Assembly: GCF_964355755.1 (NCBI RefSeq)
Contig: NC_092670.1
Location: 35,638,388-35,702,387 of the forward strand
Reading direction: 5' to 3'
Length of the DNA: 64,000 nt
Source: Antedon mediterranea
Lineage: Eukaryota; Animalia; Echinodermata
Shown piece by piece: positions 6,194-63,830 of this stretch. The number at the start of each line of letters is the position of its first letter. Within the stretch, counting starts at the first letter, position 1. The position numbers were made by a program, and so were the translations under genes. A model generated the notes under the pieces. That model was not told the origin of the DNA. It saw only the letters and a program-made list of their open reading frames with translations, and did no database searches.

Positions 6194-6568
6194 CTGTAAT
6201 TAGATGAAAAACATGTTTATTATAGTATTGAAATAATATAGAATTACAGTGGAACCACACCCTCGGGAAATTCCTATTCAGGGGACACGCTTATCATGGG
6301 GGAAAACTTTTCTGTAAAATGAATGTGAGGAAGTATATATTATAACACTATGGAGAAACCATTTTTTGGGTCCTCATGAGAAACCATTGTCATTCATTTG
6401 AACGATGTGTCTACACTCTTCAGTTTTTACTCTAAACCAAAAATGATTATTATTCATTGATTTTTCTGCATACTTTTTTTTTACCACAGAAGGAACAACG
6501 GGAAGGGTTTCAATAAAATAAATTTGTAAAACCCAATAATATTATTAAAAAAATATGTGTATACTTAC

Positions 6569-41391: not shown

Positions 41392-41966
41392 TAACTTTCA
41401 TAATTATATATAATCAATGCGTTTATTGACATACATCATGTCAGTTTTAATATTATAAATCTATAAGTAATAATAATATATTTATTCAATAGTAATTTAG
41501 ACAATAAAATGCTATATATAAAATAAGTTTATAAAAATATTGTATTCCGCTTTTCATAAAAGAATGGAAATGTTTCTTAAATACTATCTGAATATAACAA
41601 TAACAGTGTCAGAGTCATCTTCTCTTCTATGTTGCTGCAGTCACTCGGCGCAACATGCTGTAAAACGATCTGTCTAAGAATTGTACACAACTGTATACAT
41701 TTTCATACTCATTTTTTCACCATACCTTTCATCTATCTTATGTCTCCAATAAAAGTTGATAACTACAGTATATAGTAAATGTAGCATATTTGATATAAAG
41801 AATTAATTTTACAAACATACTATAAAGTATTTCGAATAAAATAATGAGATTTTGTGTTATACAGAGCAACAAAGTATTTAAAATACAAGAGTTTTACTAA
41901 GGCAGCCACCGACCATTCCTGATTGCATCTGCTAAAATTCATGGAAACAGCAGCCTCCATATAAAT

Positions 41967-42647
41967 GTCCACATGATTAACAACTGTGTCCACATGTTTA
42001 ACAGCAGTGTCCACATGTTTAACAGCAGTGTCCACATGATTAACAACAGTTTCCACATGTTTAACAACAGTGTTCACATGATTAACAACAGTGTCCACAT
42101 GTTTAACAGCAGTGTCCACATGATTAACAACAGTGTCCACATGATTAACAACAGTGTTCACATGATTAACAACAGTATCCACATGATTAACAGCAGTTTC
42201 CACATGATTAACAGCAGTGTCCACATGATTAACAGCAGTGTCCACATGATTAACAACAGTGTCCATGCGATTAACATCAGTGTCCACATGATTAACAACA
42301 GTGTCCATGCGATTAACATCAGTGTTCACATGTTTAACAACAGTGTTCACATGATTAACAACAGTGTCCACATGTTTAACAGCAGTGTCCACATGATTAA
42401 CAGCAGTGTCCACATGATTAACAACAGTGTCCACATGATTAACAACAGTGTTCACATGATTAACAACAGTGTCCACATGTTTAACAGCAGTGTCCACATG
42501 ATTAACAGCAGTGTCCACATGATTAACAACAGTGTCCACATGATTAACAACAGTTTTCACATGATTAACAACAGTGTCCACATGATTAACAGCAGTGTCC
42601 ACATGATTAACAACAGTGTCCATGCGATTAACATCAGTGTTCACATG
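41967..42647. repeat. About 32 x 21-bp minisatellite (gtgtccacatgattaacaaca) in the probable 3'UTR of the membrane-protein gene
   Basis: Direct inspection; begins about 100 nt after the stop codon. Confidence 0.95.
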
Positions 42648-42745: not shown

Positions 42746-43743
42746 TCAGGATCTGTACAATTTGGTATAGTTCTCTTTTAGAGCAGGGTTTCCACTTTTA
42801 TCAGCCTTTTGATTGTAGTAGTCACCATGTTTTGGCATTCCTTTGAAGCTTACTGGTTGATTATAAACATATGGTGCATCATAGACCTGATTAAAGTCCT
42901 CTGCTGGTGGCTCTGCTGGTCTCCGAGGAAATTCTTGCAACTGTATGCTTGTTGTATTTTCATATATACAGTCAAAATCTAGATCATCTGGTTTTTCTTG
43001 TAAAATAGGTGTTTCATATTGGTCGCCATAATCTTGTTCTGGTCTCATAAAATTTGTAGTCATTGGAGCCTCATAATTGTCCCCATAATCTGGTTGTCCT
43101 GATGGTTCTTGCATTATCGGAGCTTTATATGAACTTCCTTTGCTACTTTGCTTTGCTTTTGATGGTGAAGATTTCTGATGTAGGCCTACAACTGGCTTTT
43201 TCTTTACAATTGGTGGCAAGACCTTTGTCTTTTGAGGTGAAACGAACTCATAAGTGTCACCATAATCACTATCAGGAATTTTTGATGGTGAAGATTGAAG
43301 AGCAATTTCATAATCTCCACCATAGTCTTTATTTTCTGAGGGAACTGGAATTTCATAATCTCCACCGTAGTCTTTATTTTCTGAAGGAACTGGAATTTCA
43401 TAATCTCCACCGTAATCTTTATTTTCTGAGGGAACTGGAATTTCATAATCTCCACCATAGTCTTTATTTTCTGAGGGAACTGGAATTTCATAATCTCCAC
43501 CGTAGTCTTTATTTTCTGAGGGAATTGGAATTTCATAATCTCCACCGTAGTCCTTACTTTCTGAAGGAACTGGAAGCTCATGTCGACCTCTTGCACTTGG
43601 ACTCTTTAATTGTGTTGGTACGTAATCGTTTCTTTTCTTGTTCGGATTTCTGTGATTTCCTCCACTATTCTGTTTCTTTTGAGGTTTCATTTCAACTTCT
43701 CCAAAAATGTTGCTATCATCAATTTTCCGTATTACAGTTTGCT
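42746..43743 (-). CDS. Membrane protein last exon: Tyr-motif-rich tail with 6x DYGGDYEIP-type repeats, ending ENYTKLYRS*
   Basis: ttttttgtttgtag acceptor in phase 1, long open frame to TGA. Candidate AATAAA signals lie on the minus strand near 41422 and 41481. Confidence 0.92.
43304..43573 (-). repeat. Coding tandem repeat, 6 x 45 bp (PVPSENKDYGGDYEI)
   Basis: Direct inspection; differences between units are mostly synonymous. Confidence 0.95.
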
Positions 43744-45306
43744 CTACAAACAAAAAAGTTTAAAATTAATTATGTTTCATATCATCTTTTTATTAGAATT
43801 TGTTAAATGTAATTTATTTTTTGTTTTGTTTTTTAAATTGTATAGAGTTTAATTTAGTTAAAGTTACTCAAATTTTGAAATTTTGAGGGCTCATGGATAT
43901 CAGCTGGCCTGTGGATTCAGGTGGAAGGATTACCATCTCTAATAAAGTTGAAATAAATTTAAAAAACAAACAAAAACTGCAATGTCTACATGAGATATAT
44001 TTTCATAATTTCCAGATTCACACTGAATCTTGACACACTGTTGGATATAAATAACACACCCTTGGCTATATAAAACCAAAACAAGCCCACAATTATGCAT
44101 GTCTGGCAGAAAATATATACTTCACTTTTTGAGGTAATATCATAAAAAACATTTCACCTAAAACAGTAACAATGGTAATAAAAAAAAATAATTAAAAAAA
44201 ATAATAGAATAAAAATAACATAAACAAATTATTGATAGCAGTCATATGAGGTCATCCAGGTTGTAAGACGGGGGAGGGGAGGGGGGTCGTGGTTTGAGTG
44301 ATGTAAACTTTTTCTGGTTGGTTCATTTTATAAAGTGGGGAAGGATCAGCTCTAAATCCAGTTTTAAGAATTAAACAAGTTATTAACCATTAGGGTCAAG
44401 TTGAAATTGATGAAATAAACTGATTTTCCAAACACAGTGAATTGTTTTAAACTAAGCATTTAAAAAGACCAATGCAGACTTAAATAAATCATAGAACTTG
44501 TATAGTATTATAAGGTACTATAAATAAAAATAAAAGCTGTCAAAAAGTATAAGTCAACCAAGAAATGCAACCTTGTGAGTAAAAAAAAGAAGGGAATTTC
44601 CCTTTTGTTTCCTTTTCCTTGTTTGCAGAACTAAAGATCAAATTACAAACTTATACAACTATTCAATAGCCTTAAGTTTATTATAATAATGCATTATATT
44701 TCTATGTTAAAAACCTAGTTATCATTACTAGTGTGTTGGGTCATGACTTATAACTGGTATCTTATCTTATCAAATATAAATAATGTATAAAATAAGTAAC
44801 TGTTTTACCACTGGAAGTCTTATTCCTAAATAGTTACGGTATACAGAATGTTACAATGTATTATTGCTTATGACTATGTAGTCACATGGAATGAATTTGT
44901 ATGATTTTAAATATTTTAATGTTTTTATATACACCTGTCATATAGTATTGAGGCTACCACAAATAATTAAATGGTGCAAGTAACAATCAAACGCTTCTTT
45001 TTTTTAATGTTAACATGGCAAGAAAATGAAAATTCCCTATCTAACTAATCTAAAGCTCTGTCTACACTATCAAACTAGTTTGACAAAAAAAGTGCGATGT
45101 GCCCAAATGTGATATGCTCAAATATGGTGGTGATATGACATCATCGTGTCCATATATGGGCACATCAAACTTTTTTGTCACATAAACTTTGATAGTGTAG
45201 ACAGACAGATCTTAACTATATTTGTTTCTCCAAGCAAACTTCCTCCAATCCCAAAAGTTTGCCAAATAGGTATTAATGCCTATGACTAGCTTATTTAAAG
45301 TTTTAC

Positions 45307-45613
45307 CTAGTCTTTTTTTCAATAAATCTCCAAGCGGTGTATTAGTAGGTGGCAGAGGAGGAGGACTTGATTCTGGCATGGAATGCTGTTTTGGTAGACT
45401 TAAGGTTGAAGGTGGGCTAATTGCCATTCGATGAGGTTGAGGAAGTGGCGGTGCAGTACCCTGAAAAGCTTCATTGTTATTTCCAATGTTCCCATATTCA
45501 TTTCCGTAATCCAAAGGCACCTCTGGAAGTAACCGTTCATTTTGATTTTGTGATTCCCTTTTTGGAGCATTTTCCATATCCACCTGTCCTAATACATTCA
45601 CATTTCCATAGGC
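45307..45613 (-). CDS. Membrane protein exon 5: AYGNV...DYGNEYGNI...PPLPQP...PPPLPP...KKRL
   Basis: tttaatttcag acceptor, G|gtaaaa donor, phases 0/1; YxN and PxxP motifs. Confidence 0.88.
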
Positions 45614-45867
45614 CTGAAATTAAATAATATATTTAATTATACTATAGTATTACAAATGAAAATTGTTAATTGACTGGAAAATGGAAGGAAGAACTTTTAT
45701 ACTTTATTAATTTCTAATCAGCCTACTTTTCCTAAAATTTAATACAGTACTCTGACCCATGGGCCTATACTCGGTCAAATGCAGTATCTTTAAATACTAA
45801 GGTTAAAATGTTGATGGAAAAATATAAGAAAAGTTTATTTGTTATTTTTTTGCATCAATATACTTAC

Positions 45868-45951
45868 AGGCTCTGCATCGATCACTCGGGCAGGCATACT
45901 TGACGATGTTGAGGTTGGTAACAGATTTGGTGGTTTCTGAACTGGTGTTGG
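45868..45951 (-). CDS. Membrane protein exon 4: PTPVQKPPNLLPTSTSSSMPARVIDAEP
   Basis: tttcttgttttag acceptor, gtaagt donor, 84 nt, phase 0/0. Confidence 0.85.
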
Positions 45952-46031
45952 CTAAAACAAGAAATCAAAGTCAGTTATTAATTGCCAGTAAAATTAAGAA
46001 TAAAAACAATATAAAAAAGAGAGAAGCCATG

Positions 46032-46069
46032 ATTCGAGTTTCAATCTTTATTTGATCATCATCAGGAAT
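46032..46069 (-). ncRNA. Degenerate minimal (Penelope-type) hammerhead ribozyme motif
   Basis: Minus strand reads attc-CTGATGA-T-GATC-aaataaa-GATT-GAAA-CTC-gaat. Stem I is attc/gaat and stem II is GATC/GATT; helix III is apparently damaged. Confidence 0.5.
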
Positions 46070-47373
46070 GAAGATCAAAACGGTGAATCATGGTATTCCT
46101 CGTTATTTGGAGTGAGTTTTATACTATGTTATTTAAATTTAAAAAAATAATGTGGCAAATATAATGACAATAAACTTAAATAAAATTGATTGATAACTGA
46201 GTTCTTAATCAATTAAAATATCATGATACAGCAGTATAAAATTTGAATTTTAAAAAAGGTGGTCTATCACATTAATTCTATCACAATCACATTTTGAAAT
46301 GCACCACACGTATTAATTCCAGCATAAAAAAAAACTATTATATTTTGTTTATTTTTTATTGGATTTTGAAATATACGGAAATTTATTTAATTTATAGTAT
46401 TAATACTAAGTATTTCCCCATTATAATAAACTTAAAAAATAATAACTTCATAGAATAACATTACCAATTATGTGTTGACTACCATGTTTTATAGTATTAA
46501 TACTGAGTATTTCCCCATTAATAACTTCATAGAATAACATTTAGGTGTCGACTACCATGTTTTATAGTTTTCAAAATTAAAATTATGTAGTACCGTAACT
46601 GAAGGAATTAATACATGACTTTAAAATGTATATTAGAAAGAATAGAAAAAGAAAATAAAAAATATTAATAAGTTAAACACGAGTGCTTTAAATCGGTTTA
46701 TGTTATTCTGTGTTTTGTGCCGGTATAGCCACAAGAATTAAAGTGTTCACAAAAGGGGACAATCCTCTGTGCAGGCAACATGATTGTCATAGACCTCTGT
46801 CAAAGAGTGGTCAGGTTGAAACTATATCAACCGTACTGGTAGCTATGGCACTGTGTTTTTGTATAACTAAATTAATATATTGTACATCAGAAAAGTTTAC
46901 ATTGGATTTAACAACACAGAGACTGCAGGTCGCAAATTAGTAGACCGTCAGTAATTGTACCGCTTTTCTTTTTGACCTTACTTTCCTGGAAGTACATGGT
47001 AAAAAATCTGAATCTGTGTCGCACTAAATATACTATAGTTTCACAGTTGATTTTAGGCCAATTGAAATTCTTAAAAACTAGGCCAATCGCAATATAAAAA
47101 CCACCAAACAATGCATTTTAATATTAAGCCTTTCAAATCCAAACCTTTATTCATGCTTTTGTTAAATAAATGCTTTTGAAAAATATTGTCAAAATTTGTT
47201 TCCTGAAAGTTTGTTTGTCATAAATGAAGCTGCTACTACTATGGCAGATATTAATGTTTTATTTTGTTTTTTTAAAAATGAATTCTAATGTGCCAATTGT
47301 TGGTTACTACTGGGTGATGATACTGATCATAGAGTATATTAGTGTACTTAGGCCTTTTTTTAATAAATGTTAA

Positions 47374-47967
47374 AGCTCAGGTACAGGCATGAATTTTAAA
47401 TATAATATTTGGTTAATTGTACATAAATCAAATATTTGTAACAGAAATCGAGACGAAAAAACATGAATTTCCCTTAATATGGTCAAATACAAAATTTGGC
47501 AAAATTCTTCCATAAAAACCAGGAAGACTTTTTTCCAGTAGTTAGGTAGTTAACCTAATGTAATAACATGTCTGGTGACTCCCTAGACGGTGGAAAAAGA
47601 TGGTGGATATACGGTGGATAATTTTTGCTATAGCATGAAAATAAAAATCTGAAGTTGAATAAAAATATCAGAAATGTAATATTCAAGTTATATTACCTAT
47701 ATTTAGTCATCTGATAACATTTTTTACCACACCGTTTATTTTTCATAGCTTTTTAAAATGCCTCTCTATTTACAAAATTTGTGTACAAAGGAATAGAGAT
47801 TTTACTGTGTAATTTGAACTATCCCCCCACTGATAAGAAAGTGCTTATTTTCAACAAGCTCGTGTAACACAAATAAAATCCCAAAAATTATGAAACATTG
47901 GGGAAACTATAGATCGATAATTATTGGAATGTATGATCAATAGAAATTTTTTGCCCGCACCTTGCCT
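47374..47967. mobile_element. Second TTAA-flanked non-autonomous element (Kolobok-like)
   Basis: TTAA on both sides; imperfect TIR agctcaggtacaggca / tgcccgcaccttgcct. Confidence 0.6.
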
Positions 47968-48053
47968 TTAAGTTTAATAATGTTATTAGTGTAACATTTT
48001 CCATTAGACACGTGGTGTGTACAGCATCCACATTATTCCTATTATTACTATAG

Positions 48054-48369
48054 TATACAAATAATGAATGTTTATGAGTGCAATGGTACAAATAATGGCA
48101 CGAGGTGAATGATGAAAGGTTATATCAACGAGGCAAAGCCGAGTTGATATAACCTTTCATCATTCACCAAGTGCCATTATTTGTACCATTACACGAATAC
48201 AAAACATTCATTATTTGTTTTATATAACATCTAGACGTTTTTTTTTCGTACACAAAAATGTTTCAAAAAGTACTATTTAACGATCGTTGAATAGTGCGTA
48301 CTATTGCACGCCATGTGACCCACATTCGTCCAATCAAATGACAGGAATTTATATAGGTGTTATATAATA
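48054..48369 (-). mobile_element. Inverted second copy of the 9835-10140 hairpin element
   Basis: Reverse-complement identity over nearly the whole length. Confidence 0.8.
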
Positions 48370-49465
48370 ATGTATATGACCGAGTATAATCCCATACTCG
48401 AATACAGTAACCCAACCGTCTAATTTAAGCTAAATTTGGACACAAGTCTTTTGGCAGTTTCATTAATTATTGAATCAGAGTATAATCCCAAAATACCTGG
48501 GTTCCTGGCGCCATCACACACGTCCTCGCGTATTATTGTTATTACAGTGCGCCACCTTGCGCCCTATCGAGGGACATTGTTTTTTCTCTTAGAGTTAGTT
48601 TGTTCATGTTATATAGTCGCAGTCGGTTGGTATTATATTCGTTTATACTTTAATAAAGTGTTCATATCTTCATAAAATTGATGAGTCTCTATTGCCGTGG
48701 GACTATTACTAAGATTATTAAAATACCTAGCTTTAAACTATAGTTTGCTGTTGCAGAGCCTACAGTAATTGTGATTTGTGCAACTAAGGGTTTATACAAA
48801 ATCTTACAGAGAGCTCATAATAAAAAATAAACTTTCTTGGCTCAGTGAGATTTACACAGTCGGGTTAAAACTTCTGAGCAGTGAAAAGCCAAAACACTCC
48901 CGCATATATGACTGTCAGAGTTTTTTTGGCTAGGTGAACCATCTCAAAAAGATTTACCAGAGGCAAGCGGAACTATTAAGAAAGGAGGAAAACTTACTCT
49001 GCAGTTTGATAAGTTTTTTCAAAGGAAAGTTTCTGTCAGGCGGCCTGTTCGCACTTAATATTCGATTGGTATTAGTCTTAAAAGAGATACAACTTTAGCA
49101 TTTGATCAGGAACGGACTTACAGACGGCGGAAGACTGCATGTTTAACTAGGATATAGCTGGTGGCCCATTAGTCGGTCTTATCTCACTTGCTTTAATATA
49201 ACTTTAGTACAAGGAAACAACATTCATGTATCAGGTTAAATAACATCAGGGAGATGTAATTGAGTTTGATTTATCATTATAGTGTAAATGTGAACATGCA
49301 TTCAATGTGTAGTCAACATTAACATAAAAAGATTACAGTAATTGTTAATCCCTGGTTAAAATCAAAATACATAGCAAAATAGTGCAAACTTAAAATCAAA
49401 CTCATGCTGCCAAATTAAAAATGGATTGAAATATAATATAATTATTGCACATATTTCGTTTATAC

Positions 49466-49498
49466 CTCATCCGTTGCTTTCCAAGACTTGAATCTCAT
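49466..49498 (-). CDS. Membrane protein exon 3 (33 nt): MRFKSWKATDE
   Basis: tgttctttag acceptor, GAG|gtataa donor, phase 0/0. Confidence 0.6.
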
Positions 49499-50389
49499 CT
49501 AAAGAACAGTAAAAGAAACATTTATGTACGGTCTAATATCTCAAGAACAAATATGCCTTCTTGTTGAACAGGGGCGAATCCAGCATTATGTATAAAAAGG
49601 AGGCCTGGAAGTGCATTTTTTTCAATTGAAATACAGTATAAAGTTGGCCCATGTCCGATGTGCCCACAAGTACATCCCCTCTAAAATAAATATTAAGACT
49701 TGAGTACTGCAAAAGGAGGCCTGGAAGTGCAATTTTTTCCCAATTTAAATACAGTACAAAGTTGGCCACTTCTGATGTGCCCATCCCCCACCAACACCTC
49801 TAAATAAAATATCAAGACTGCGAGTACTGCAACATTGTCTTGTGATAAACAAATATTGCCATTCTTCAGTTACTAATTTTACAAATTAAACGTGACAATG
49901 GAATTGGTAAGCGAACATGATCATACCAAACGTTTGTACATGAACATTATGTTGCACAAAATTTGGCCTACTTTATGGTATTTATTTTTTATTTCATATT
50001 CACTGATAGATATATACAGCTGCAATGGAAAGCTGACACCGTGCATGTCGCCTCTTTTTCGAAAGCATCTCAACGGTTTTTTATAAGCCAGTAGTTTGGC
50101 TGTTTGGCTTTACCTTCAGAAAAGTTTTGACCCCACCAATGTTGTTTTAAAAATGTTTATAGAGAGATTAATTTAAGGGTTAGTTGTAAATTAAGGATGG
50201 GTATGTTACCGACAACAGGTAGGCCAATCGTCGCTAGACATAGTACAACAATTTGACGTGAGGTATAGACTGCAATAGATCTGTAAAGGGCCTGATTTGC
50301 TAAAGTTATTTAAGTAAACCAGTAACATTGATTAGGCCTACATACTTATAAACATATACATATAATATTTATCTATTGGTTTAACTTAC

Positions 50390-50956
50390 CGGTTCATCAT
50401 TACGGCCACAGTAATAACGTATCAAACATGATAAGGAAACGATAAGTAGAACGACACCAACAATAATTGCAATGATGATAAATCCAAATATAAGTTTTTC
50501 ATTTTTTAAAAAACATGCTAAAGTTTTGCATTTCGTTTTGCATTCACATTTTTCCAAATCATAACCATAATGACCACATGTCTCCTCAAAACATTTACAA
50601 TCATCTGGATCATCTACCGAACAACCATGCACGCATTTTTCGTTACAAATCGTGCAATTTTCTTCAAAACTGATGTCCGTGCACGTATTATGTAGGCCTA
50701 TATTGTAACAACAATTGTCCATCATTTCTGTTACCATGTCTGTGGCTGCTTCCATAGTCGTGTTTGCCACAGTTGTGTTTCCTACCACAGTTGGTGTTGG
50801 TCGAGTTGTTGTAGGAAGAGTTGTTGTTGCCACAGTTGTAGAAGATTCTGTTCCATTCAATCTGGTAGAAGTATTCACTATTGTAGTTAATATAGTTCCT
50901 TGTATTGTTGTGGTTTCAGAACATTTAAGTATATAGTATTCTGTTGCTGCACACAT
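50390..50956 (-). CDS. Membrane protein exon 2: Thr-rich mucin stalk, 14-Cys domain, TM helix (LIFGFIIIAIIVGVVLLIVSLSCLI), juxtamembrane RYYC
   Basis: 567 nt open; ttctttttcaatag acceptor, CCG|gtaagt donor; N-x-S/T sequons NTS, NGT, NTT x2, NCT. Confidence 0.92.
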
Positions 50957-52989
50957 CTATTGAAAAAGAAAATAAAATTTAAAACCTTTGAAAATACCAC
51001 CTCAAAATTCCCCTGATAACCTCGGTTTTCCTTGATTTTTTCCACTAAAATACAATTTCATCCGATTTTTTTTGGAAAACAACAAAAAGATCAGATAATA
51101 ACCAAATGTACAATTATCACTGCTACAAGAAAGAACTATAATAAATAATATCCATGCGTTGTTGATTTATTATTATTATATTATACATTGTGTACCATAG
51201 CGCCTTCTATGGTTTTATCATTACAAATATTATAGCACACTCTATATTATTTTGTACATTGCTTTCATTGCGATATTTAATTTTTTTCAAGTTGACAGGG
51301 AGTCTACCTTACTTGAGTTTATCTGTCCATATGGATAGAAATGTTTTAAATATTGAGGAACTTAAAACTTAAAATGGTTTAAAACTTTAAACGAGTCATT
51401 TATACATTTTTTTTTTAAATCAATGAACTAAAGGCAAAAACAGAACAACTGTTTTCAACCTGTATGCAGTATGGCTGAATGTTTTACATACTTTAACTCT
51501 AGTGGTCTGGCCATGGATCTATACATTTATAGGTCCATGGTCTGACCATAGGGCATTCATATCTGTCTAGTTGATCTCATTTTTTATCTCTAAAGATGTA
51601 TTGTCCCCTAAAAAATGAAGATTAATTAAATCAGACTTTGAATAGGTTATTTTGTAGTTTAATCAAGTTAATCACTTTGTGAAAAAACATTAAAATGACA
51701 AAATAAATGGTTAAATTCAACCAAAAGCCCATTGGCTAGCAGCCAATTTGATTATTTTTTGCTTTAAATTACAGTATTTTTCAGGTAAATGCTATTTTTT
51801 CCATCCAAAGGTTTTGATCAATGTAGATTAACTATTATGCAACATTAAAATGGCATATTCAACAAAAAATGTCACTGTAATCATTATTTTTCCAGGGGGA
51901 AAATACATTATAATCTATAACCATTCTTTTTTCAAGTTCCCAATTCTATATAGTCAGTTTTGTTGCCACAGGGTGACAGATGGATGAGGTTCTCATCAAC
52001 ATTCAAAAGTAACAATTATCTACTTGTCCAAGACCTAATTATGATATAAATGAAATTTAATAATCAACAAATCATTGGAATCCCCTCCTGGTCACAAAAC
52101 AGATGCGGTAGGGGGGCTTGTAATGACCTAAAAAGATTATTTTTAAACATAATCATTGTGTATTGTTGTCAATTTAATAACTAGATATATTGCATAAACA
52201 ATCATTGACTCAATCACTCTGAGTTATTAATATTAAATAATGCAAGCCATCCATTTGAAAAAAAATTAGAATAAAATAGAATTTTATGAAGTCATACAGT
52301 TTAAAATTAGTTTCCAGTGTAAGTTTTGTGGCTCGAGGAGGGGGTAACTTGTATGAACTACTAAACAGAGTACCACAGGTAACTGTTATACTTTTAGCAA
52401 TTTTAAAAGAAGAAATAACTAAAGTTGTATAACATGCAACAATTGTAATTTTAGATTTGAGAAAATTTTATTTTTAGTTTCATTTAAATGAAATCTGTTT
52501 TGATATATATGTTTTGTAACTTGAAAAAGTTACTTTATTATTATTTTGTATTACTTTGTAATGTAACCAAGTTAAGTAATGTATACTGTTTTATGAAATA
52601 CAGAAAATAAAATAATTAAAAAAAAAGTTTCATTTTGATGCTAGATAGCATTACCATAATAAAGTCACAAGGTAATGAAAACACATTATTTCCACCAAAA
52701 AAATTACAAATTTTCAAAAACAAAAGAGAAAGATACGGGGAAGTAGACCAGTAAATTAACGTAGATAAAAATGATTCTTCGATATTGACAATATAAAACA
52801 TTGTTCTGGTAGCTGACAGAGACAGCAATATTTCCTGTTTAGATCCGTGTCTTTCCATTCTGATGATCTTCCTGTTATAGTGTAGGTGATTTCCTGCAAC
52901 TATCGTACTAGAAAGCTACATTGAATATTAATCAATGTTAAGTACAAAAGTACGCCAAGGCAAAAATGAGTACTTTATACAGGGTGGCC

Positions 52990-53349
52990 CAGTGGTGTAA
53001 CGCAGATGCCTTTAGGGCCCCTGGTTTAGGGACACAATAACGTAGCCCTTCAACACAAAGGCTTCTGGCATTCTTAGGCCGGTATTCATGAAAGGGGACT
53101 ATCCTTAGTCCTGGACTATCTAGTCCAGGACTAAGGATAATCCTGGACTATCCTTGATATGGTATTCATGAAACCTGGACTAAATAGTCCTGGATTAAGC
53201 CATGGAAAATTACAGCAGCTAGGTGGTCCATGATGTTTCCTTCTTTTTTTTTTGACATAAGATAATGCCTTTTTTTCTCCGGGCGCTGCTCTGGGGCACC
53301 TTATAAGCTAAGGGTTTAGCCAGTAGTGCTTATAACTGTGACACCACTA
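52990..53349. mobile_element. CAGTGG-terminated MITE with an agggtggc TSD, containing a nested palindromic transposon end (53078-53200)
   Basis: Direct repeats at 52981 and 53350; TIR cagtggtgt / acaccacta; nested tcctggacta / tagtccagga repeats. Confidence 0.6.
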
Positions 53350-54464
53350 AGGGTGGCTAACAATTGCTGTTCTACAGTATACCCCTTGTATGAAAAGAAA
53401 TGCTTAACTCAAAATCATTCATCAATAATTTTAATGTTTAATGTACGTTTTTAAACATCATATTACAATGTGTGTTATCTATGAATAGTTTTGAAATGTA
53501 TAAATAAATGGGAAATATTCTATTATTTCTATTTTATTTTTCTGCATGTGATTTATTTTAAACTTTTTATATTGACTTTGACATTTGTCCTTGTTTTTTA
53601 CACTAAAAGTAAAACACAAAAGTATAAGCAACACAATAATGTTTAAAAGTCGAAGAAACAATAAAGAATTCTAAGAAGAAAAAAATTCAAAATGTGTGAT
53701 TCACCATTCTGTACACATTACCAGGCTCTTTTTTTACTTTGAAATTTGGATAATAAGAGTTTTCATACACACACCATGTTTTTGCTAAGCCATTGAATTA
53801 AATAAAATTAATACCATTGCCATGTTTAACAGAATACTGTGTTATTCATTTTGAACAAGTGATAACCAAGTTAAAGCTCTGTCTACACTATGAAACTATA
53901 GTTTGACAAAAAAGTGTCATGTGTCCAAATATGGTAGTGATATGCCTAAATATGATAGTGATATGACATCATCATGTCTATATATGGCACATCACATTTT
54001 TCTGTCACATAAAGTTTGACAGTGTAGACAAAAAGGCTTAATAAAAAACTGTACACAAAAATGTCAATCCTCTGAAGCTAAGAGCGTATCGATCTGTTAT
54101 ATACATAGATACAAAGTGTTGACATGGTTTATAGTGTTATTTTAATTGTTGAACTTTAAACTACTCTACAGTATATTGTTTAATTAGTTATAAACACACA
54201 CACGCAGTGAATTGACAATGGTGTTCTTTTTTTTGTAAAAAGTGATGATATTTACTTAATTGAGAAGATCAATACAAATAGGTTAGACTACACTCATGTA
54301 GATGGCTTAGTGATGTGTTAAGGTGTGCCATCCAATGCAAATGTTATCATCAGAAACCGTCACTAACTGAGGCAGCGCCACTGAATCTTAATTTCAAAGG
54401 CAGTTTCTCAGTACTATACAGTACTTTGTAAAATAGTAACCTATGTTTTAATCTTTAAGTACCT

Positions 54465-54911
54465 ATGTTCTGTTGAATTTTCTACAACTTAATACCAGGA
54501 AATCCTGACAACTAAAACAATGATGAGGAGTAAGACCCTCGATGTAGTTTTAATGTGTAGATAAAGGCCAAAGATTGAGGAAGTATGTTTCTTAGGAAGA
54601 CGAGATGTTTTTATTATGTACTGTAATTACCTGATTACAGGTGCAATCACCTTTAATTCATTATTATTCAGCTTCTCAGTACATATTGTAACTCATGTTA
54701 TTTAAGTGCCGATGTTCTGTTGAATTTTCTACAACTTAATACCATGAAATCCTGACAACAAGACCCTCGGCCTCGACTCAATGTAGTTTTAATGTGTATA
54801 TAAAGGTCAAAGATTGAGGAGGAAGTATGTTTCTTAGAAGACCACAATGTATTTTGAGATTTGTATTATGTAATTACCTGATTACAGGTGCAATGATCAC
54901 CTTTAATTCAT
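54465..54911. repeat. Diverged tandem duplication of a ~200-bp intronic segment
   Basis: atgttctgttgaattttctacaacttaatacc occurs at 54465 and 54712 with colinear continuation. Confidence 0.8.
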
Positions 54912-55956
54912 TGTGCCAGAAAATAAAATATGATAATTTTAAATGTACAATGTAAGTTTTCGCGCCACGATTTTAGGCAGTTATATTCAAGAGAACGGAA
55001 TCATTAGGAAACAGTTACCATGCGGTAGCTTATTGTTTACTATGGCTCAACAAATTCCGGGTGTTTTGCCCATATAGAAAAAGATGCTTACAAAAAAATC
55101 AATATATTGTACTTTATCGATCCATTTGACAAGAAATGAAGCCTATCTAGGACGATAATGATTGATAACTAGATATGTATTTTTTATGTACAGTAGTAAA
55201 AAAAATAAAAAATGTTTTTATCATCGAACAATAGGATAACCATTTTATACTAATTAATAATTAATAATAATTACCTTCACAAGTTCAATCAAATGATGTC
55301 ATCATTAGTTTATTAGTTATTTTCTTCAGCATAAATAGTTATCCTATAGCTAGAATAAAAACTGCTCTAATTTCTTTTATTTTATGTAAGAAAAATCTTA
55401 TTCACGTATTGTTATTGTTTTTAGTACAAATAAATGTAATAAATGTACTGCATTGTGTTGAATAAAAATTATAACATTCTATATATCTTTTTATTTTAAT
55501 TTTAAAAATAAATGTAAAAAACCAACAATAGATTCTGAAATTGTTTAGTGTTATCTGGTATAAACCAAATACAACTACATTTTACAGTCATTATTTGAAT
55601 TTGTAATGTCCAAAATATGCTGTCACTTTGTCGACAAAGCTATTTTTCCAGTTTTATTTATCAATTCAATACAAAGAATAGTGTGCTTTTAGAATTAAGT
55701 TCTTTGAATACAAAAAAAAACTAGCCACGCATCAGTAAAAAATAATGTAACAAAACGTGAGATCATTTAAAAAATACTTTGACAATACTAGTTCCTCTTT
55801 TAACAACTGGTATTAACAAATAATAGTAATAGTTTCATGTGATCTACGTCAAAGTTTCACTTTAAGTAAAGATATAATAGGCAAAGCTGCTGACATAAAT
55901 TGAAATCGTAAAGTTTTTTTCAGTATTTATTTAATTTTAATTTTAGTGACTATTAA

Positions 55957-56274
55957 GAGTGAGTGAGTGGCCGAGCGGTTAAGACAGTGGAACCGTAATT
56001 ACGTAGCCATAACATCGGCAGGGGTTCGAGGCTCACTCACTCCATGGTTCTGGTGGTAGAACGAGTCTTCTCGGATATGGACTATAAACCGTAGGTCCAG
56101 TGTACACATCTAGCTTGTGTGCACTTTAAAGAACCTAGTACATCTTTCCAGACGAGTAGGGGGTTACCCCGGTGTATTAGTACATCACAGCCACTGATCA
56201 CCAACTGGGCCCTCTGGGAGACCAGTCTTTGACTGAAGAGGTTACCCAGTATAAATATAAATTTCAATTCAAAT
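55957..56274 (+). mobile_element. Full-length copy of the same Nin/Deu-type SINE
   Basis: Near-identical reverse complement of 39849-40163. Confidence 0.88.
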
Positions 56275-56537
56275 GAGACTTGTGAAAATAAATACTAATG
56301 CACTTAAATGCACTAAAGGATGAACCACAATTTTTAATTCTGGGATTTTATAATTCAGACTAGCATGATTATGAAATTTTAGGGACCTAATTCCTACTGT
56401 ATTTAACCAATAGTGTTACATGGTATAACAATCTATTAATGACACATGGTGTTACTAGTTGGATAAAGCTATGGCATGGTAAACTGGTTGATGATCATGA
56501 TTTTAGGCCTACTGTATTATGTCGGCACAGTTGACCA

Positions 56538-56862
56538 TCAATATTTGGTGTGGCGCTTGTCAATATTTGGTGTGGCGCTTGTCAATATTTGGTGTGGCGC
56601 TTGTCAATATTTGGTGTGGCGCTTGTCAATATTTGGTGTGGCGCTTGTCAATATTTGGTGTGGCGCTTGTCAATATTTGGTGTGGCGCTTGTCAATATTT
56701 GGTGTGGCGCTTGTCAATATTTGGTGTGGCACTTGTCAATATTTGGTGTGGCGCTTGTCAATATTTGGTGTGGCCCTTGTCAATATTTGGTGTGGCGCTT
56801 GTCAATATTTGGTGTGGCGCTTGTCAATATTTGGTGTGGCGCTTGTCAATATTTGGTGTGGA
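56538..56862. repeat. About 15 x 22-bp minisatellite (tcaatatttggtgtggcgcttg)
   Basis: Nearly invariant units with no spacers. Confidence 0.95.
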
Positions 56863-57627
56863 GCGGCCTATTGGCACACAGGTGACCATGCGTCTTTACA
56901 CACTATAGGTTGTCTATCCGCACAGAGAACTAGATGCACAGTTGATCTACCTTGACTTTCTATCAATAGAAAACTTTACATAGACGCACAATCAACTGGG
57001 CCGGCTTTATCGAAAAATAATATTATGATATTGATTGATTGATTGATTCTTTTATTTTTCACACAACATTCTTAAAAATATAAATAAAAGATTAAGTACA
57101 ATAAAGTGTGAAAAACAGGATAACCACAAGCAAGCAAAGCTTTTAATCTGTGGCACCCTAACTTAAAATATAAATTTACAAATATATTACAAAAAATGTA
57201 TATGTATGGTTGACCATGCTGAAATAGCCAAATTCATTTATAACATTATAATAAAAACATTCCACAACATAGTTTGTGTATTTTAAACATAAAATTTAAA
57301 ATGTCGATGTCTAATTTAGCAATATTACAAGCAAATTGGCTTCAAAATTAAAAGTTTGAAACGGAAAAAAATTAGTCTTGACGCCAATTTAGGCCTTGGC
57401 GTTTCAACAATTCGAACATTTATTGAGGGAGAAACCTCCATGATGTGGGCCTGATCCACTGGGGAAACCTCGGATAAAACTACATTACAATATACCACTG
57501 TATATAAAACTGTAAATACACTAGCTGAAACAATATAATAATCTACAATACAACCAGGCACAGTAGCACAAAGAATAAGGATGATTTAGAGATCATAAGG
57601 AGGAGGAAATAATCAATATTCACTTAC

Positions 57628-57699
57628 TTCGTCGGCAACCACGACTGTCTGCCAAAAACTACCACCACACACCAACATGAGGAGCACAGCGTAAAACAT
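57628..57699 (-). CDS. Uncharacterised type-I membrane protein, exon 1: signal peptide MFYAVLLMLVCGGSFWQTVVVA-DE
   Basis: acaATG, hydrophobic core with a V-x-A cleavage site, GAA|gtaagt donor; phase 0 matches the acceptor at 50956. Confidence 0.85.
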
Positions 57700-57819
57700 T
57701 GTTCTTTCAAGTTCAACTAAAATAAACAGTTAAAATAAAACTTCATTTTCTCTAAATTGTCGCAAAAGATCGTACCAAAAACGAGACAAAATCAAAGTTT
57801 TTAACTTCTGAATTTTGGA

Positions 57820-57990
57820 GCCTTACCCGGAAATAAACTAAATAAACTTTTAAAGGCAACCGCGTTGAACTGTGCTACGATCTGAAGTGTTTACTTATCG
57901 TATGCTTGGTCAGGTTTAACCCGGAAGCTCAGTGAGTGGCCTTCTTCTTTGGTGTATGACGTAACCAGGAAATCCTTTTATTGGTCAATA
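57820..57990 (-). promoter_or_regulatory. Probable promoter of the membrane-protein gene: clustered ETS-like sites, a CRE-like site and a CCAAT box
   Basis: ccggaaat at 57827, ccggaagc at 57921, caggaaat near 57966, tgacgtaa at 57957 and attgg at 57980, all 130-290 bp upstream of the ATG. Confidence 0.5.
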
Positions 57991-60045
57991 GTTTATGATG
58001 TTATATACAGCCCACGGGACTAATAATAGCCTCTTGTTGATAATGATAATATAGTAGGCCATTCACAACATCAACTAAAACAATATTACAAAACGGATTT
58101 ACATCTTACTTTATATTTTTTAATAATAGGCATCAATTTACAATGATTTTAATCATTTTCAATAATAATTCATTCAAAAATGCAAACGTTTACTACTTTC
58201 TAGCATAGGAGTAGTAAGCACATTTCTATATTTTCTGTAACCATGTTTCATAAGTATTATCTTGTAACACACAACATTGTCACAGTATGATAAACATGAA
58301 ATAAACAAGTAGAAAATAATATATAACCAATGGAGTAATTTTGACAATAAATTGAATAAGTGTAAGACTATTAAGCATAGATAATACCTATAAATTAGTG
58401 GTAAAAATATTACAAATACTAGAATACAAATTATACACAAAAGTCTAAATTCAGTCATATAATAGTATTACTTAATAAGTGAATGTCTTTAATTTTCATA
58501 AGAATTCAATATTTAAAAAAACAAATATATGCATAATGCAAATAAAAATAATATCACAATAATATAATTTGTTAAAATAATACATTTAATGAAAATATAT
58601 ATTTAAATAAATAATATAATTTATTCAACTGAATAATTGTTCATAACAATTGAATTTATTCTAATACAATTATTATATTGTAGTACAGTGATTGGAATAG
58701 AAAAAACACAATACTGTACTAAGCAACATTATATCAACATAATAGAAATATAGCTTTCTATAATAACTACATCAAGAAAATCACTAAAATATGGTACGGA
58801 TGCAGATTTTCCCTTTCCCTGCAATTCTGTTTATATCCTGTGCACTTAGTGAAATTGTATACACATGTGACCAACAACCCTGCCAATAATTCAATACTAA
58901 CACACAAGAAAAACAATGTATAGAGGGATTAACTTCCTCCATCAATTGAGTCAATAAAAATAACATTATAATAATAATGGTTTTTTTTTTTTACCAAACC
59001 TGATAAAATGAGAGAAACAATGTACAGAAAACAACATAGGGTCGATTGTATTTGGAAAATAAGGTAATACTGTCAACATTATGTTTATCGCAAATAGTGT
59101 ACACAACACATCGTGTGAAGGGTTTGGGAGCAAACGTCACGACACGTACGTACATGATTTGTTGTTGGTAGGAATGCATCATGACCTTTCCCATCATGCA
59201 TTGTGCAATGACGTTCATCACGAAATCAGGCTATTTGCGACAAACCATATTCCCATAAATAAAAACTAAAAAACCTATTTCCAACTATTTCCTACTCTAT
59301 AAAATGCCTTCTGGAAATTGTGTCTCGGATGAAAGTAGTATATCAACAGGCGACTGCATTATAACAAAAAAAATTAAGCACTTTCTATACGATTGAAAAT
59401 ATCAATTCATTTACATTGCACAGTTTTAGATAATCTTGTTGCTATTAATATTATGAGATAAACTACATAAAAAAAGAAGCGTTCTAAACATTTTATTATT
59501 AAGCTACTTATTTACCCTATCTTTGCTCCAATAACAAACTGTATATAATTGGTATAACATGTCCACAGATACAGTATCCATATTAAACAGTATTAAAACA
59601 AGTATTAAAGACCAGAAAGTTACCGTTTTTTTTATAACTATAAATTTTAAAAGCTTCTAAAATGTCATTTCCAGTCCGGTATTATGTTTCAGTTTTAGAG
59701 AGAAGGAAGCTCTATGGACTAAAAATAAAAAAGAGTACATCTCGACATAGGGAAGGTTTATGCGACAAGTTTACAGTGTGCGTCAACTGTTAGTGTACTT
59801 TAAACACACTCAGCTGAATGTATTTCGAACATTGTGCATTTTTATAAAAACTGTTTAGGTTGAGGTGAATCAGGAGAGTGGACCTTAGGATTAGCTTTGC
59901 ACATGATCCTACTTAATTACAGACATAATCATAAAACATGTTAAATGTTGAGCTTTTCTTCTTCCCTAAAATATAATATAGTGTTGAGGAAGCTTTGATC
60001 AGACTAGAACTTCTATAATATATTATATAGTATAGGATAATAGGA

Positions 60046-60240
60046 CATCCAGGGGTGGCCAAGCCAGGGATGATACATCCCTGGATTTGCCACCCCTGGA
60101 TGGGTCATCCCTGGATGGGTCATCCCTGGATGGGTTGTCCCTGGCTGTGTCATCCCTGGCTGGGCCACACCTGGATAGGTCATCCCTGGATGGGTCGTCC
60201 CTGGCTGTGTCGTCCCTGGCTGGGTTATCCCTGGCTGAGT
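60046..60240. repeat. 15-bp GC-rich repeat (catccctggatgggt) with two inverted terminal units
   Basis: Direct inspection. Confidence 0.9.
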
Positions 60241-62914: not shown

Positions 62915-63830
62915 ATCCATTGAATGCTGATGTGTACTAAACTTGCTAGACCAAACAGGTCTCACCAATGACTGTTGGTTGGACCAAACACACCAGATGA
63001 AACCAGGTCACAATTGAGTGCTGTGCATACAAAAGTCACTGGACACAAGTTCTTCATTTAATGCTGGTGAGGACCAAACATCATTCATAACGTCTGAATG
63101 CTGGTGTGCAGTAAACTTTAACAGACCAGCATCTAGGTCTCCATTGAATGCTGGTGTGCAGTAAACTCACCAGAACAACCAGGTCTCCATTGAATGCTGG
63201 TGTGCAGTAAACTCAACAGAACAACCAGGCCTGCATTAAATGCTGTGCGTAAAAAAGTCACCAGACTAACATCCATAAGTTCTCCATTGAATGCTTGGGA
63301 GGACCAATCATCATCCACTGAATTTTGTGCATACAAAAGTCACTAGACCAGCATCCACAAGTTCTTCATTGAATGCTGGTAAGGACCAAACATCATTCAT
63401 AACGTCTGAATGCTGGTGTGCAGTAAACTTTAACCGACCAACATCTAGGTCTCCATTGAATGCTGGTGTGCAGTAAACTCACCAGAACAACCAGGTCTCC
63501 ATTGAATGCTGGTGTGCAGTAAACTCACCAGAACAACCAGGCCTGCATTGAATGCTGGTGTGCAGTAAACTCACCAGAACAACCAGGTCTCCATTGAATG
63601 CTGGCGTGCAGTAAACTCACCAGAACAACCAGGTCTCCAATGCTGATGAGTACCAAAATCCAGGTTTCCATTGAATGCTGGCGAATGCAGCCAAACTAAT
63701 CTGGCCAACATCCAGAAGGTCTCCATTAAATACTGGTGTGTAAACTCACTTGACAAAGTAAAAGAATGATTCTATTGAGTGCTGATGTGTACCAACATTC
63801 ACCAGATGTTGTCTTCATTAAACTGCAGTG
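62915..63830. repeat. 46-bp satellite (ccattgaatgctggtgtgcagtaaactcaccagaacaaccaggtct) with ~310-bp higher-order structure
   Basis: Unit spacing 63481->63527; a variant block recurs at about 63071 and 63383. Confidence 0.9.

What the first reader, a model, noticed from the sequence alone, without database searches (positions are those of the whole stretch)
42746..57699. Unrecognised single-pass receptor/adaptor: mucin + Cys-rich ectodomain with a long multi-tyrosine docking tail
Seen: six phase-compatible exons give about 686 aa, comprising a signal peptide, Thr-rich stalk, 14-Cys domain, TM helix, juxtamembrane Cys (SCLIRYYC) and roughly 480 aa of low-complexity tail with no recognisable catalytic domain. 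The tail has YxN sites (YGNV, YGNI, YENT, YYNQ), many YxxP sites (YEIP x5, YEAP, YETP, YDAP), PxxP tracts (PPLPQP, PPPLPP) and a terminal YTKL. Known: pYxN binds Grb2 SH2; pYxxP binds Crk/Nck/Abl SH2, as in the p130Cas substrate domain and nephrin; palmitoylated transmembrane adaptors (LAT, PAG) use juxtamembrane Cys. Inference: a lineage-specific receptor with a Cas/LAT-like multivalent scaffold attached to a mucin-type ectodomain, possibly acting in immunity, adhesion or phagocytosis.
Basis: partly seen in the sequence, partly recalled or inferred. Interest (0 to 1): 0.78.

Follow-up and report, generated by a model that had tools for sequence, protein, structure and literature searches.

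The report
Echinoderm receptor with repeated tyrosine code
A feather-star gene, with likely relatives in sea stars, encodes a predicted single-pass membrane protein with no recognisable enzyme domain whose long inner tail repeats one tyrosine motif about ten times between a second kind of tyrosine site, likely forming a docking platform that gathers signalling adaptors when the receptor is engaged.

Summary
The gene is real. The six GT-AG exons give 686 aa, identical to an 'uncharacterized' Antedon mediterranea RefSeq protein. A 675-aa isoform skips the 33-nt exon 3. Contigs of one RNA-like run show exon 1-2 clearly; 2-3, 3-4 and 2-4 have only 29 letters on the short side. No Pfam, NCBIfam or PDB family fits. 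Relatives exist in a second crinoid (tail only, E 4e-61) and two sea stars (reciprocal E 3e-9), so it is not a one-species orphan; the range beyond these is untested. YxxP is not conserved (10, 11, 3, 0 sites). Best reading: a non-catalytic receptor whose phosphorylated tail likely recruits Grb2 at the flanks and Nck/Vav-type SH2 adaptors on the array. Ligand, tissue and phosphorylation are unknown. It is a new variant of a known kind.

The parts
57628..57699 (-). Exon 1 coding part: Met + predicted signal peptide (aa 1-24)
   Evidence: Hydrophobic window KD19 up to 1.9. Joined to exon 2 in run X1: the loose end behind 50956 maps to 57628. No SignalP available.
50390..50956 (-). Exon 2 (aa 25-213): Cys pair, Thr-rich stalk, Cys-rich domain, TM, juxtamembrane Cys
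   Evidence: X1 contig depth 29-60 vs 3-11 in flanking introns
50717..50917 (-). Thr-rich mucin-like stalk (aa 38-104), 25 Thr in 67 aa, 4 N-glycosylation sequons
50513..50713 (-). 14-Cys ectodomain module (aa 106-172); its core C-x2-C-x3-C-x3-C-x6/7-C-x-C spacing recurs in sea stars; furin-like/growth-factor-receptor type is a lead only
   Evidence: sequence similarity to sea stars not above shuffles
50420..50494 (-). Single transmembrane helix (about aa 179-203)
   Evidence: KD19 peak 3.49; helix 187-218 is the only stretch of the Patiria model whose block pLDDT passes 70
50408..50428 (-). Juxtamembrane Cys201/Cys207, candidate palmitoylation sites
   Evidence: Cys also at the inner TM border in Patiria (3) and Acanthaster (2)
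49466..49498 (-). Exon 3, 33-nt cassette micro-exon (aa 214-224)
   Evidence: Included and skipped forms in X1; RefSeq X1/X2 differ by it; sea-star isoforms differ by a 12-aa block at the same place
45868..45951 (-). Exon 4 (aa 225-252)
   Evidence: Loose ends before 49466 and before 50390 map to 45923-45951
45307..45613 (-). Exon 5 (aa 253-354): YGNV, DYGNEYGN (first D-Y-G-x-x-Y unit, YxN type), Pro-rich tract
   Evidence: X1 contig, depth 108.5, lies on 45307-45612 with 27 and 86 letters beyond; YGNV invariant in 4 of 4 proteins
42746..43743 (-). Exon 6 (aa 355-686 + stop): RxIDD, tyrosine array, distal YxN sites, terminal YTKL
43715..43729 (-). RKIDD motif, single copy just before the array in all four proteins
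43304..43575 (-). 45-nt tandem repeat, 6 copies, 94% identity: six D-Y-G-G-D-Y-E units at 15-aa spacing
43007..43267 (-). Three further D-Y-G-x-x-Y-E units outside the tandem repeat (Y519, Y578, Y597)
42809..42979 (-). Distal YxN sites (Y615, Y663) and the Y642/Y646/Y648 cluster
   Evidence: near-identical block in Anneissia
42758..42769 (-). Terminal YTKL; a Tyr seven residues from the C-terminus with a hydrophobic +3 residue in all four proteins

Best explanation
This is a spliced crinoid gene for a predicted single-pass membrane protein with no recognisable catalytic domain, whose tail carries a conserved array of D-[Y/F]-G-x-x-Y-E units between YxN sites, and it likely works as a non-catalytic receptor whose tail, once phosphorylated, would recruit many SH2 adaptors at once. 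Shown: gene structure, the motifs, their order and their conservation in a second crinoid and two sea stars. Inferred: (1) an unknown ligand or surface engages and clusters the mucin-stalk/Cys-rich ectodomain; (2) non-receptor tyrosine kinases phosphorylate the tail, Src-family kinases probably at the YxN sites (hydrophobic -1) and an acid-preferring Syk-type kinase possibly at the array; (3) Grb2-family adaptors bind the flanking pYxN sites, and Nck/Vav/RasGAP-type SH2 domains bind the pY-E-x-[P/V/T] array; (4) valency of 5-10 array sites plus 5-6 YxN sites drives membrane clustering and actin remodelling, as in nephrin and LAT; (5) the terminal YxxΦ ends or internalises the signal. Odds: SH2-docking scaffold about 0.7; the specific Grb2 plus Nck/Vav-to-actin version about 0.4.
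For: Exon joins are seen in RNA-like contigs and not in the DNA run, and both isoforms are RefSeq proteins. There is no catalytic domain by Pfam, NCBIfam or PDB. D[FYWH]GxxY occurs 10, 13, 8 and 9 times against shuffle means of 0.01-0.02, and 0 of 5000 shuffles reach this in any protein. Over 43 D-aromatic-x3-Y sites, G is at -3 in 40 and E at +1 in 34. The order is YxN - array - YxN - terminal YxxΦ in 4 of 4. YxN is enriched in the sea stars (6 vs 0.64; 5 vs 0.82), and none of the 21 YxN sites has the Pro at +3 that Grb2 rejects (PMC3514216 passage). +3 is P or V at 24 of 30 array sites, matching Nck1 pY-[D/E]-[E/L]-[P/V] at +1 and +3. pYELP peptides bind Nck1, Vav1 and RasGAP at 0.4-5 uM (Table 2 rows). 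SLP-76 DYESP binds Vav and Nck (PMC2803302). Most non-receptor kinases favour +1 Glu (PMC11136658 section 5). ZAP-70 wants -1 Asp and Lck wants a hydrophobic -1 (PMC5089863); here -1 is hydrophobic at 12 of 20 YxN sites and 2 of 30 array sites. Nephrin clustering depends on pTyr valency (PMC4238058).
Against: No phosphorylation, binding, ligand, tissue or phenotype data exist here; all partner assignments come from human SH2 and kinase motifs. The +2 residue of the array (A/V/I/T/P/F/Q/L) mostly misses the E/L of the Nck1 consensus, and Y[DE]x[PV] is not enriched in Acanthaster (2 vs 0.55, 313 of 3000 shuffles). The -1 Asp (Syk-type) is mainly crinoid: 13 of 19 array sites vs 2 of 11 in sea stars, where Ser, generally disfavoured at -1, occurs 3 times. 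Site counts are inflated by tandem duplication. The most invariant positions (D-5, aromatic -4, G-3) lie N-terminal to the Tyr, where SH2 domains do not normally read (PMC9333988 passage), so the model does not explain them. [quoted passage not shown] Crinoid-to-sea-star homology is not significant for the Cys domain (175 and 412 of 1000 shuffles; hhalign probability 1.9%) or for the tail after the array (214-432 of 1000).
Confidence: 0.5

Rival explanations
1. The unit is read from its N-terminal side. D-[Y/F]-G-x-x-Y is a dedicated docking or recognition motif for a PTB/TKB-type domain, for one specific kinase or phosphatase, or for a phospho-independent sorting adaptor, so the protein would be an endocytic or cargo receptor or a kinase-tethering scaffold rather than an SH2 platform.
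For: Conservation is strongest at -5 to -3: G is at -3 in 40 of 43 sites and the -4 aromatic swaps freely (Y 25, F 16, H 1, W 1), so the first Tyr is not an obligatory phosphosite. The same prefix precedes both YxN-type and YE-type tyrosines. Residues -4 to -1 are read by kinases rather than SH2 domains. The terminal YxxΦ in 4 of 4 fits the AP-2 sorting signal (recalled).
Against: +1 Glu (34 of 43) and YxN at fixed places are also conserved, which points to C-terminal (SH2-type) reading. No NPxY occurs in any of the four. No paper in the library holds the motif string.
Confidence: 0.2
2. One reading: a p130Cas-like Crk/Abl-recruiting YxxP scaffold on a receptor.
For: 10 and 11 YxxP sites in the two crinoids, above shuffles. 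Crk needs +3 Pro or Leu and ABL kinases select +3 Pro.
Against: YxxP is at chance level in Patiria (3 vs 3.7) and absent in Acanthaster (0). Cas-type YDxP occurs 1, 1, 1 and 0 times, all at chance. In Table 2 of PMC3514216 pYELP peptides bind Crk weakly (44 and 23.7 uM), although the paper's text gives 380 nM for one of them, an inconsistency within the paper. It could still hold for crinoids alone.
Confidence: 0.1
3. A highly diverged member of a known receptor family: TNFR-like, a kinase-less EGFR/insulin-receptor derivative that kept the furin-like domain, TM and C-tail, or MEGF10/Draper-like.
For: ESM feature leads (all under 0.9): TNFR-Cys, Furin-like_2, GF_recep_IV and VSP clusters for the Acanthaster Cys domain, with 8 of the 10 best named hits in one family or clan; MEGF10-like and EMI clusters for whole Patiria; Fn14 for Antedon. 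The sea-star Cys spacing resembles furin-like repeats (recalled pattern).
Against: No Pfam hit for any ectodomain. No meaningful PDB sequence hit at E up to 10. No NPxY or ITAM, and no TRAF motif shared between species. The search of 1.84 billion representatives with exon 2 found only the protein itself. Both AlphaFold models were too poor to test the fold (pLDDT 36.6 and 37.8).
Confidence: 0.15
4. The tyrosine array is a neutral tandem-repeat expansion in a low-complexity tail and the motifs have no role.
For: Six of the ten Antedon units come from one recent 45-nt tandem repeat, and the window is full of minisatellites.
Against: Four Antedon units lie outside the repeat. Arrays with different spacers (15, 18, 13-21 aa) keep the same core in four species. 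Within the Antedon repeat the core D-Y-G-G-D-Y-E-I is the same in 6 of 6 copies, with codon changes at two positions both silent.
Confidence: 0.05

Closest known systems
Anneissia japonica XP_033121370 (LOC117120454), Patiria miniata XP_038051606-10 ('formin-like protein 20'), Acanthaster planci XP_022106879-81 ('titin-like')
   Same: Same tail motifs in the same order. The sea-star proteins also have a hydrophobic N-terminus, Cys pair, Thr stalk, Cys module, TM, juxtamembrane Cys and a 12-aa optional block after the TM.
   Different: All are uncharacterised, and their names look like low-complexity artefacts. The Anneissia model holds only the tail (contig of 2,806 nt). The sea-star array has V/T at +3 instead of P and 16 ectodomain-module Cys instead of 14. 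Orthology was not shown by synteny.
Nephrin (NPHS1)
   Same: Non-catalytic single-pass receptor with several Nck-type pTyr sites that cluster by valency (PMC12203975 and PMC4238058 passages).
   Different: Nephrin has eight Ig domains plus FN3 and three YDxV sites. This protein has a Thr stalk and Cys module, and 5-10 YE-x-[P/V/T] sites with a fixed D-[Y/F]-G prefix plus 5-6 YxN sites.
Transmembrane adaptors LAT/NTAL/PAG and the cytosolic adaptor SLP-76
   Same: Long tail with several Grb2-type sites and juxtamembrane Cys. D-Y-E-x-P resembles SLP-76 DYESP/DYEPP.
   Different: TRAP ectodomains are a few residues and are unlikely to bind ligand; here there are about 156 residues. The LAT-like and SLP-76-like site classes sit in one chain. 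No sequence homology was found.
p130Cas substrate domain
   Same: Tandem Y-x-x-P sites in the two crinoids.
   Different: Cas is cytosolic (recalled) and its peptides are YDxP. Here the sites are YExP and the Pro is lost in sea stars.
Amphioxus BbLcLRR (PMC8211107, abstract seen)
   Same: Invertebrate deuterostome non-catalytic receptor phosphorylated by a Src-family kinase on tail tyrosines.
   Different: LRR ectodomain, three ITIM-like sites, inhibitory through SHIP1. This protein has no ITIM in Antedon and about 20 non-prefix tail tyrosines.

Membership tests
Transmembrane adaptor proteins (LAT/NTAL/PAG) | Extracellular part of only a few amino acids | tested here: not met
   About 156-aa ectodomain after the predicted signal peptide vs the definition in PMC4861716
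Transmembrane adaptor proteins (LAT/NTAL/PAG) | One TM and a long tail with several tyrosine motifs | tested here: met
Transmembrane adaptor proteins (LAT/NTAL/PAG) | Juxtamembrane palmitoylation | tested here: inconclusive
   Cys present at the inner TM border in 3 of 3 full-length proteins; the modification itself cannot be tested here
Non-catalytic tyrosine-phosphorylated receptors (works-like class) | Tail tyrosines phosphorylated on engagement and bound by SH2 proteins | not testable with these tools
   Motif match only
p130Cas family | Array of YDxP Crk sites; cytosolic SH3-bearing protein (second part recalled) | tested here: not met
   YDxP 1, 1, 1, 0 at chance; TM present and no SH3 by Pfam
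Nephrin / Ig-superfamily adhesion receptors | Ig and FN3 ectodomain | tested here: not met
   No Pfam family in P0004; definition from PMC12203975
ITAM/ITIM immunoreceptors | YxxL/I-x6-8-YxxL/I or [ILVS]xYxx[LVI] in the tail (patterns recalled) | tested here: not met
   ITAM 0 in 4 of 4; ITIM 0 in Antedon and 1 in each of the other three
MEGF10/Draper/CED-1 engulfment receptors | EMI plus EGF repeats and an NPxY motif (recalled) | tested here: not met
   No EMI/EGF Pfam hit; NPxY 0 in 4 of 4; ESM lead only 0.75-0.77
TNF receptor superfamily | TNFR Cys-rich repeats and a TRAF-binding motif or death domain (recalled) | tested here: inconclusive
   No Pfam hit; TRAF-type motifs are not shared among the four proteins; ESM lead 0.79; fold untestable
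Furin-like / growth-factor-receptor Cys-rich domain | Furin-like repeat fold and disulfide pattern | tested here: inconclusive
   ESM named hits 0.77-0.79, 8 of 10 in one family or clan; Pfam and PDB blank; models low-confidence and Foldseek blank
Receptor tyrosine kinases / phosphatases | Catalytic domain in the tail | tested here: not met
   No kinase or phosphatase family in P0004, P0005 or P0006; in-frame stop after YTKLYRS

The most novel reading that the evidence does not exclude
An ancient echinoderm receptor family that fuses a ligand-binding ectodomain to a LAT-plus-SLP-76-like two-kinase, two-adaptor scaffold in one chain. It uses an undescribed phosphotyrosine code, D-[Y/F]-G-x-x-Y, read by a dedicated kinase or PTB-type domain, with signalling strength tuned by lineage-specific tandem expansion of the unit. 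It would be a one-molecule invertebrate analogue of the vertebrate immune-receptor condensate.
Probability: 0.2. Interest if true: 0.78.

Novelty: new variant of a known kind. Interest (0 to 1): 0.5.

Why it matters
If the reading holds, echinoderms have a receptor that carries its own multivalent phosphotyrosine scaffold, a job vertebrate lymphocytes split between receptor, LAT and SLP-76. The natural variation in unit number (5-10) and spacing (13-22 aa) across species offers a ready series for testing how valency and site order set condensate formation and actin output. The invariant D-[Y/F]-G prefix is a concrete, testable lead to a kinase or binding-domain specificity that the papers read here do not explain. 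The limits are that the general design (non-catalytic receptor with a tyrosine-rich tail) is well known, that unchecked notes report many such receptors in this same genome, and that nothing here identifies ligand, cell type or pathway.

Tried and rejected
No whole genome was held, so paralogue number and synteny are untested. Within the window the motif occurs only in this gene (10 of 10 six-frame hits). The run search listed no holder on record as RNA; X1 is RNA by guess only, and all runs are contigs, so depth is not expression. In one search the joint table was swamped by intronic high-copy repeats (1775 rows not shown), so exon 4-5 and 5-6 joints were not displayed. The profile search with the 4-protein alignment returned only P0003 and missed three of its own members, so it says nothing about range; sea urchins, sea cucumbers, brittle stars, hemichordates and chordates remain untested. 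The metagenome scan matched 244 stretches and confirmed none. Pfam was blank for the window protein (only sub-threshold TM-type or spurious hits for P0005 and P0006), and NCBIfam was blank. PDB sequence searches gave nothing meaningful; searches used a window stretch holding only part of the Cys module and were repeated on the right stretch. Both AlphaFold jobs were low-confidence, and Foldseek on the first gave no match under E 0.001, which is meaningless for such a model; the VIA searches were not run for that reason. ESM Atlas hits were all 0.80 or less. A TRAF6-type PxExxD occurs 6 times in the Antedon spacer but 0, 1 and 0 times in the others and was rejected. Diversifying selection on the ectodomain was not shown: 4 differences in exon 2 of run X1, 3 non-synonymous, vs 5 in flanking introns, p 0.10. 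No complex prediction was sent: phosphotyrosine cannot be modelled and no echinoderm SH2 partner was in hand. Literature: no paper held any of five identifiers or the motif string; topic searches found no description of this family (listings and abstract starts only). Supplements were not searched and could list these genes.

Full report
Observation. The window is AT-rich animal DNA. On the minus strand six exons (57699-57628, 50956-50390, 49498-49466, 45951-45868, 45613-45307, 43743-42746) have AG acceptors and GT donors, phases 0,0,0,0,1, and translate to 686 aa with one stop (one search had exon 4 off by one base). The product has a hydrophobic N-terminus, a Cys pair (26, 36), a stalk with 25 Thr in 67 residues, 14 Cys at 106-172, one TM at about 179-203, Cys201 and Cys207, and a 483-aa tail with 33 Tyr. 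A search of exon 2 against 1.84 billion representatives returned one protein, 100% identical, of 675 aa. Its cluster has two members, Antedon mediterranea XP_071946604.1 (675 aa) and XP_071946521.1 (686 aa), both 'uncharacterized'. They equal the five-exon (exon 3 skipped) and six-exon models exactly. These models come from the same assembly and are not independent of it.

Splicing. Five runs hold the region, and none is on record as RNA. Run X1, guessed to be RNA, behaves like it: contig depth is 29-61 on exons 2 and 3 and 3-11 on the introns beside them, and a contig of depth 108.5 lies on 45307-45612, the extent of exon 5, with 27 and 86 letters hanging off. In one search, X1 has a loose end behind 50956 that maps to 57628 (exon 1-2; 155 and 255 or more letters on the two sides), a joint 49498-50390 with CT..AC ends (exon 2-3; depth 47.8, 0 in DNA run X2), and loose ends before 49466 and before 50390 that both map to 45923-45951 (exon 3-4 and exon 2-4). 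The last three have 29 letters on the short side, below the tool's bar of 31. Exons 4-5 and 5-6 rest on contig borders only, and no record spans the transcript. This is one study and contigs only.

Relatives. Full-length phmmer found 3 proteins among 7994 scored candidates: the isoform itself, Anneissia japonica XP_033121370 (E 4e-61, 512 aa, tail only, on a 2.8-kb contig) and Patiria miniata XP_038051607 (E 3e-3). The reverse search from Patiria residues 95-620 found 3 among 7993: itself, Acanthaster planci XP_022106880 (E 3e-85) and the Antedon protein (E 3e-9). The sea-star proteins have the same layout: hydrophobic N-terminus, Cys pair, Thr-rich stalk, Cys module, TM at about 195-217, Cys at the inner border, then the tail. 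Their RefSeq isoforms differ by an optional 12-aa block starting at residue 227, about ten residues after the TM, like the 11-aa Antedon cassette at 214 (not checked against reads). Results against homology: the Cys module is not more alike between crinoid and sea star than shuffles (175 and 412 of 1000; hhalign probability 1.9%), nor is the tail after the array (214-432 of 1000 in four pairs). The tail before the array is (0, 3, 1 and 2 of 1000), partly through Pro-rich stretches. I take the four as one family on the reciprocal E-value, shared motif order, Cys spacing and cassette position; orthology is not proven. The profile search missed its own members, so the wider range is unknown.

What the tail conserves. 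YxxP: 10, 11, 3 and 0 sites against 4.1, 3.2, 3.7 and 2.8, so it is a crinoid feature only. YxN: 5, 5, 6 and 5 against 2.1, 1.8, 0.6 and 0.8, so it is conserved. D[FYWH]GxxY: 10, 13, 8 and 9 against 0.01-0.02, never reached by a shuffle. Among 43 sites defined as D-aromatic-x3-Y, -4 is Y 25, F 16, H 1, W 1; -3 is G in 40; +1 is E in 34. The free Y/F exchange says the first aromatic is a recognition residue rather than a required phosphosite. Six Antedon units come from a 45-nt repeat (6 copies, 94%) and are not independent, but four lie outside it, and the other species have arrays with other spacers (18 aa in Anneissia; 13-21 aa in the sea stars). The order is the same in 4 of 4: two or three YxN sites (YGNV invariant), a Pro-rich tract, a single RxIDD, the YE array, two or three more YxN sites, and a Tyr seven residues from the C-terminus with L, L, M or I at +3. 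There is no ITAM and no NPxY in any of the four.

Mechanism. Shown: the anatomy above. Inferred from human motif data: Grb2 requires +2 Asn and rejects +3 Pro (PMC3514216, passages), and all 21 YxN sites comply. The array is pY-E-x-[P/V] at 24 of 30 sites. This matches +1 and +3, but mostly not +2, of the Nck1 motif pY-[D/E]-[E/L]-[P/V]. Table 2 of that paper shows pYELP peptides binding Nck1, Vav1 and RasGAP at low micromolar and Crk at 24-44 uM (its text gives a conflicting 380 nM for one Crk pair). SLP-76 DYESP binds Vav and Nck (PMC2803302, passages). Most non-receptor kinases favour +1 Glu (PMC11136658, passages and section 5). ZAP-70 strongly prefers -1 Asp while Lck prefers a bulky hydrophobic -1 (PMC5089863, passages). 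Here -1 is hydrophobic at 12 of 20 YxN sites and 2 of 30 array sites, and Asp at 15 of 30 array sites. However, 13 of those 15 are crinoid and many are duplicated copies, so the two-kinase idea is a hint only. Nephrin clusters with Nck and N-WASP in a valency-dependent way (PMC4238058, passages; PMC12203975, passages). The best model is a non-catalytic receptor whose clustered, phosphorylated tail gathers Grb2 at the flanks and Nck/Vav-type adaptors on the array and drives actin remodelling (0.5). Its weak point is that the most invariant residues lie N-terminal to the Tyr, where kinases, not SH2 domains, read (PMC9333988, passages). That leaves room for a dedicated kinase or PTB-type reader, or a sorting role (0.2). 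The same paper notes no functional evidence for Grb2 sites upstream of Nck sites in membrane proteins, while this tail has YxN on both sides.

Ectodomain. Pfam, NCBIfam and PDB searches were blank or spurious. The sea-star module has a Cys spacing that resembles furin-like repeats (pattern recalled), and ESM's named neighbours are TNFR-Cys, Furin-like_2, GF_recep_IV and VSP clusters at 0.77-0.79, a lead only. Both AlphaFold models failed (mean pLDDT 36.6 and 37.8), and Foldseek on the first found nothing. Fold and ligand are open.

Comparison. It works like nephrin and the LAT/SLP-76 pair but is a member of neither: the ectodomain is not Ig/FN3, and it is far longer than the few residues that define transmembrane adaptors (PMC4861716, passages). 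It is not Cas, an ITAM/ITIM receptor, Draper/MEGF10 or an RTK by the tests listed. An invertebrate-deuterostome precedent for a kinase-read non-catalytic receptor is amphioxus BbLcLRR (PMC8211107, abstract and outline). No paper in the library holds the five identifiers tried or the motif string, and five topic searches showed no description of the family (listings only). Most subscription papers and all supplements are outside these searches. Earlier unchecked notes report several clusters of Ig receptors with tyrosine-rich tails in this genome, which makes the general design less unusual here; none covers this gene.

Verdict. A real, annotated but uncharacterised gene of an unnamed crinoid and sea-star family, with a sharply conserved and undescribed tyrosine unit. 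It is a new variant of a known kind, interest 0.5.

Noticed in passing
window 4207-26234, minus strand (open frames at 25908-26234, 17567-17839, 6014-6199, 4207-4509): Exon-like frames of a downstream gene on the same strand that resemble an ARHGAP18/28/40 (Conundrum)-type RhoGAP from memory; Pfam and PDB searches of the fragments did not confirm this. A RhoGAP next to a putative actin-regulating receptor is a useful synteny marker.
   Followed up: partly
window 41966-42647: A 21-nt minisatellite (32.5 copies) begins 100 nt after the stop codon, and the first AATAAA on the minus strand is at 41486, so the repeat probably lies in the 3' UTR. It gives long spurious open frames on both strands.
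   Followed up: partly
window 57717-57826 and 57827-57960: A possible 110-nt GT-AG intron in the 5' UTR; upstream lie two CCGGAA (ETS-like) sites and a TGACGT (CRE-like) site, and the putative spliced UTR has no upstream ATG (motif names recalled).
   Followed up: partly
window 50390-50956 (exon 2): Run X1 differs from the window at 4 places in exon 2, 3 of them non-synonymous and in or next to the Cys module (D104N, K145Q, E148V); in all, 5 of the 6 listed coding differences are non-synonymous. Not significant against flanking introns (p 0.10).
   Followed up: partly
window 45050-45205, 53920-54030, 47400-48550, 51600-51800, 55960-56150: Very high-copy interspersed repeats in the introns (summed contig depth 10^4-10^6); the first two are copies of one element, and the last looks like a tRNA-derived SINE head by eye (not tested).
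   Followed up: no
window 43304-43575: The spacer of the coding repeat gives six PxExxD matches to the TRAF6 pattern (recalled), not shared with the other three proteins.
   Followed up: yes
window 60016-60334, 63095-63639, 56538-56861, 10244-10640: Further tandem repeats (15/60, 46, 22 and 79 nt); the one at 60076-60234 is GC-rich and open in several frames on both strands, with no sign found that it is coding.
   Followed up: no
P0006-P0012: NCBI names for the sea-star relatives ('formin-like protein 20', 'titin-like', 'pollen-specific leucine-rich repeat extensin-like') differ even between isoforms of one gene and look like low-complexity artefacts.
   Followed up: yes
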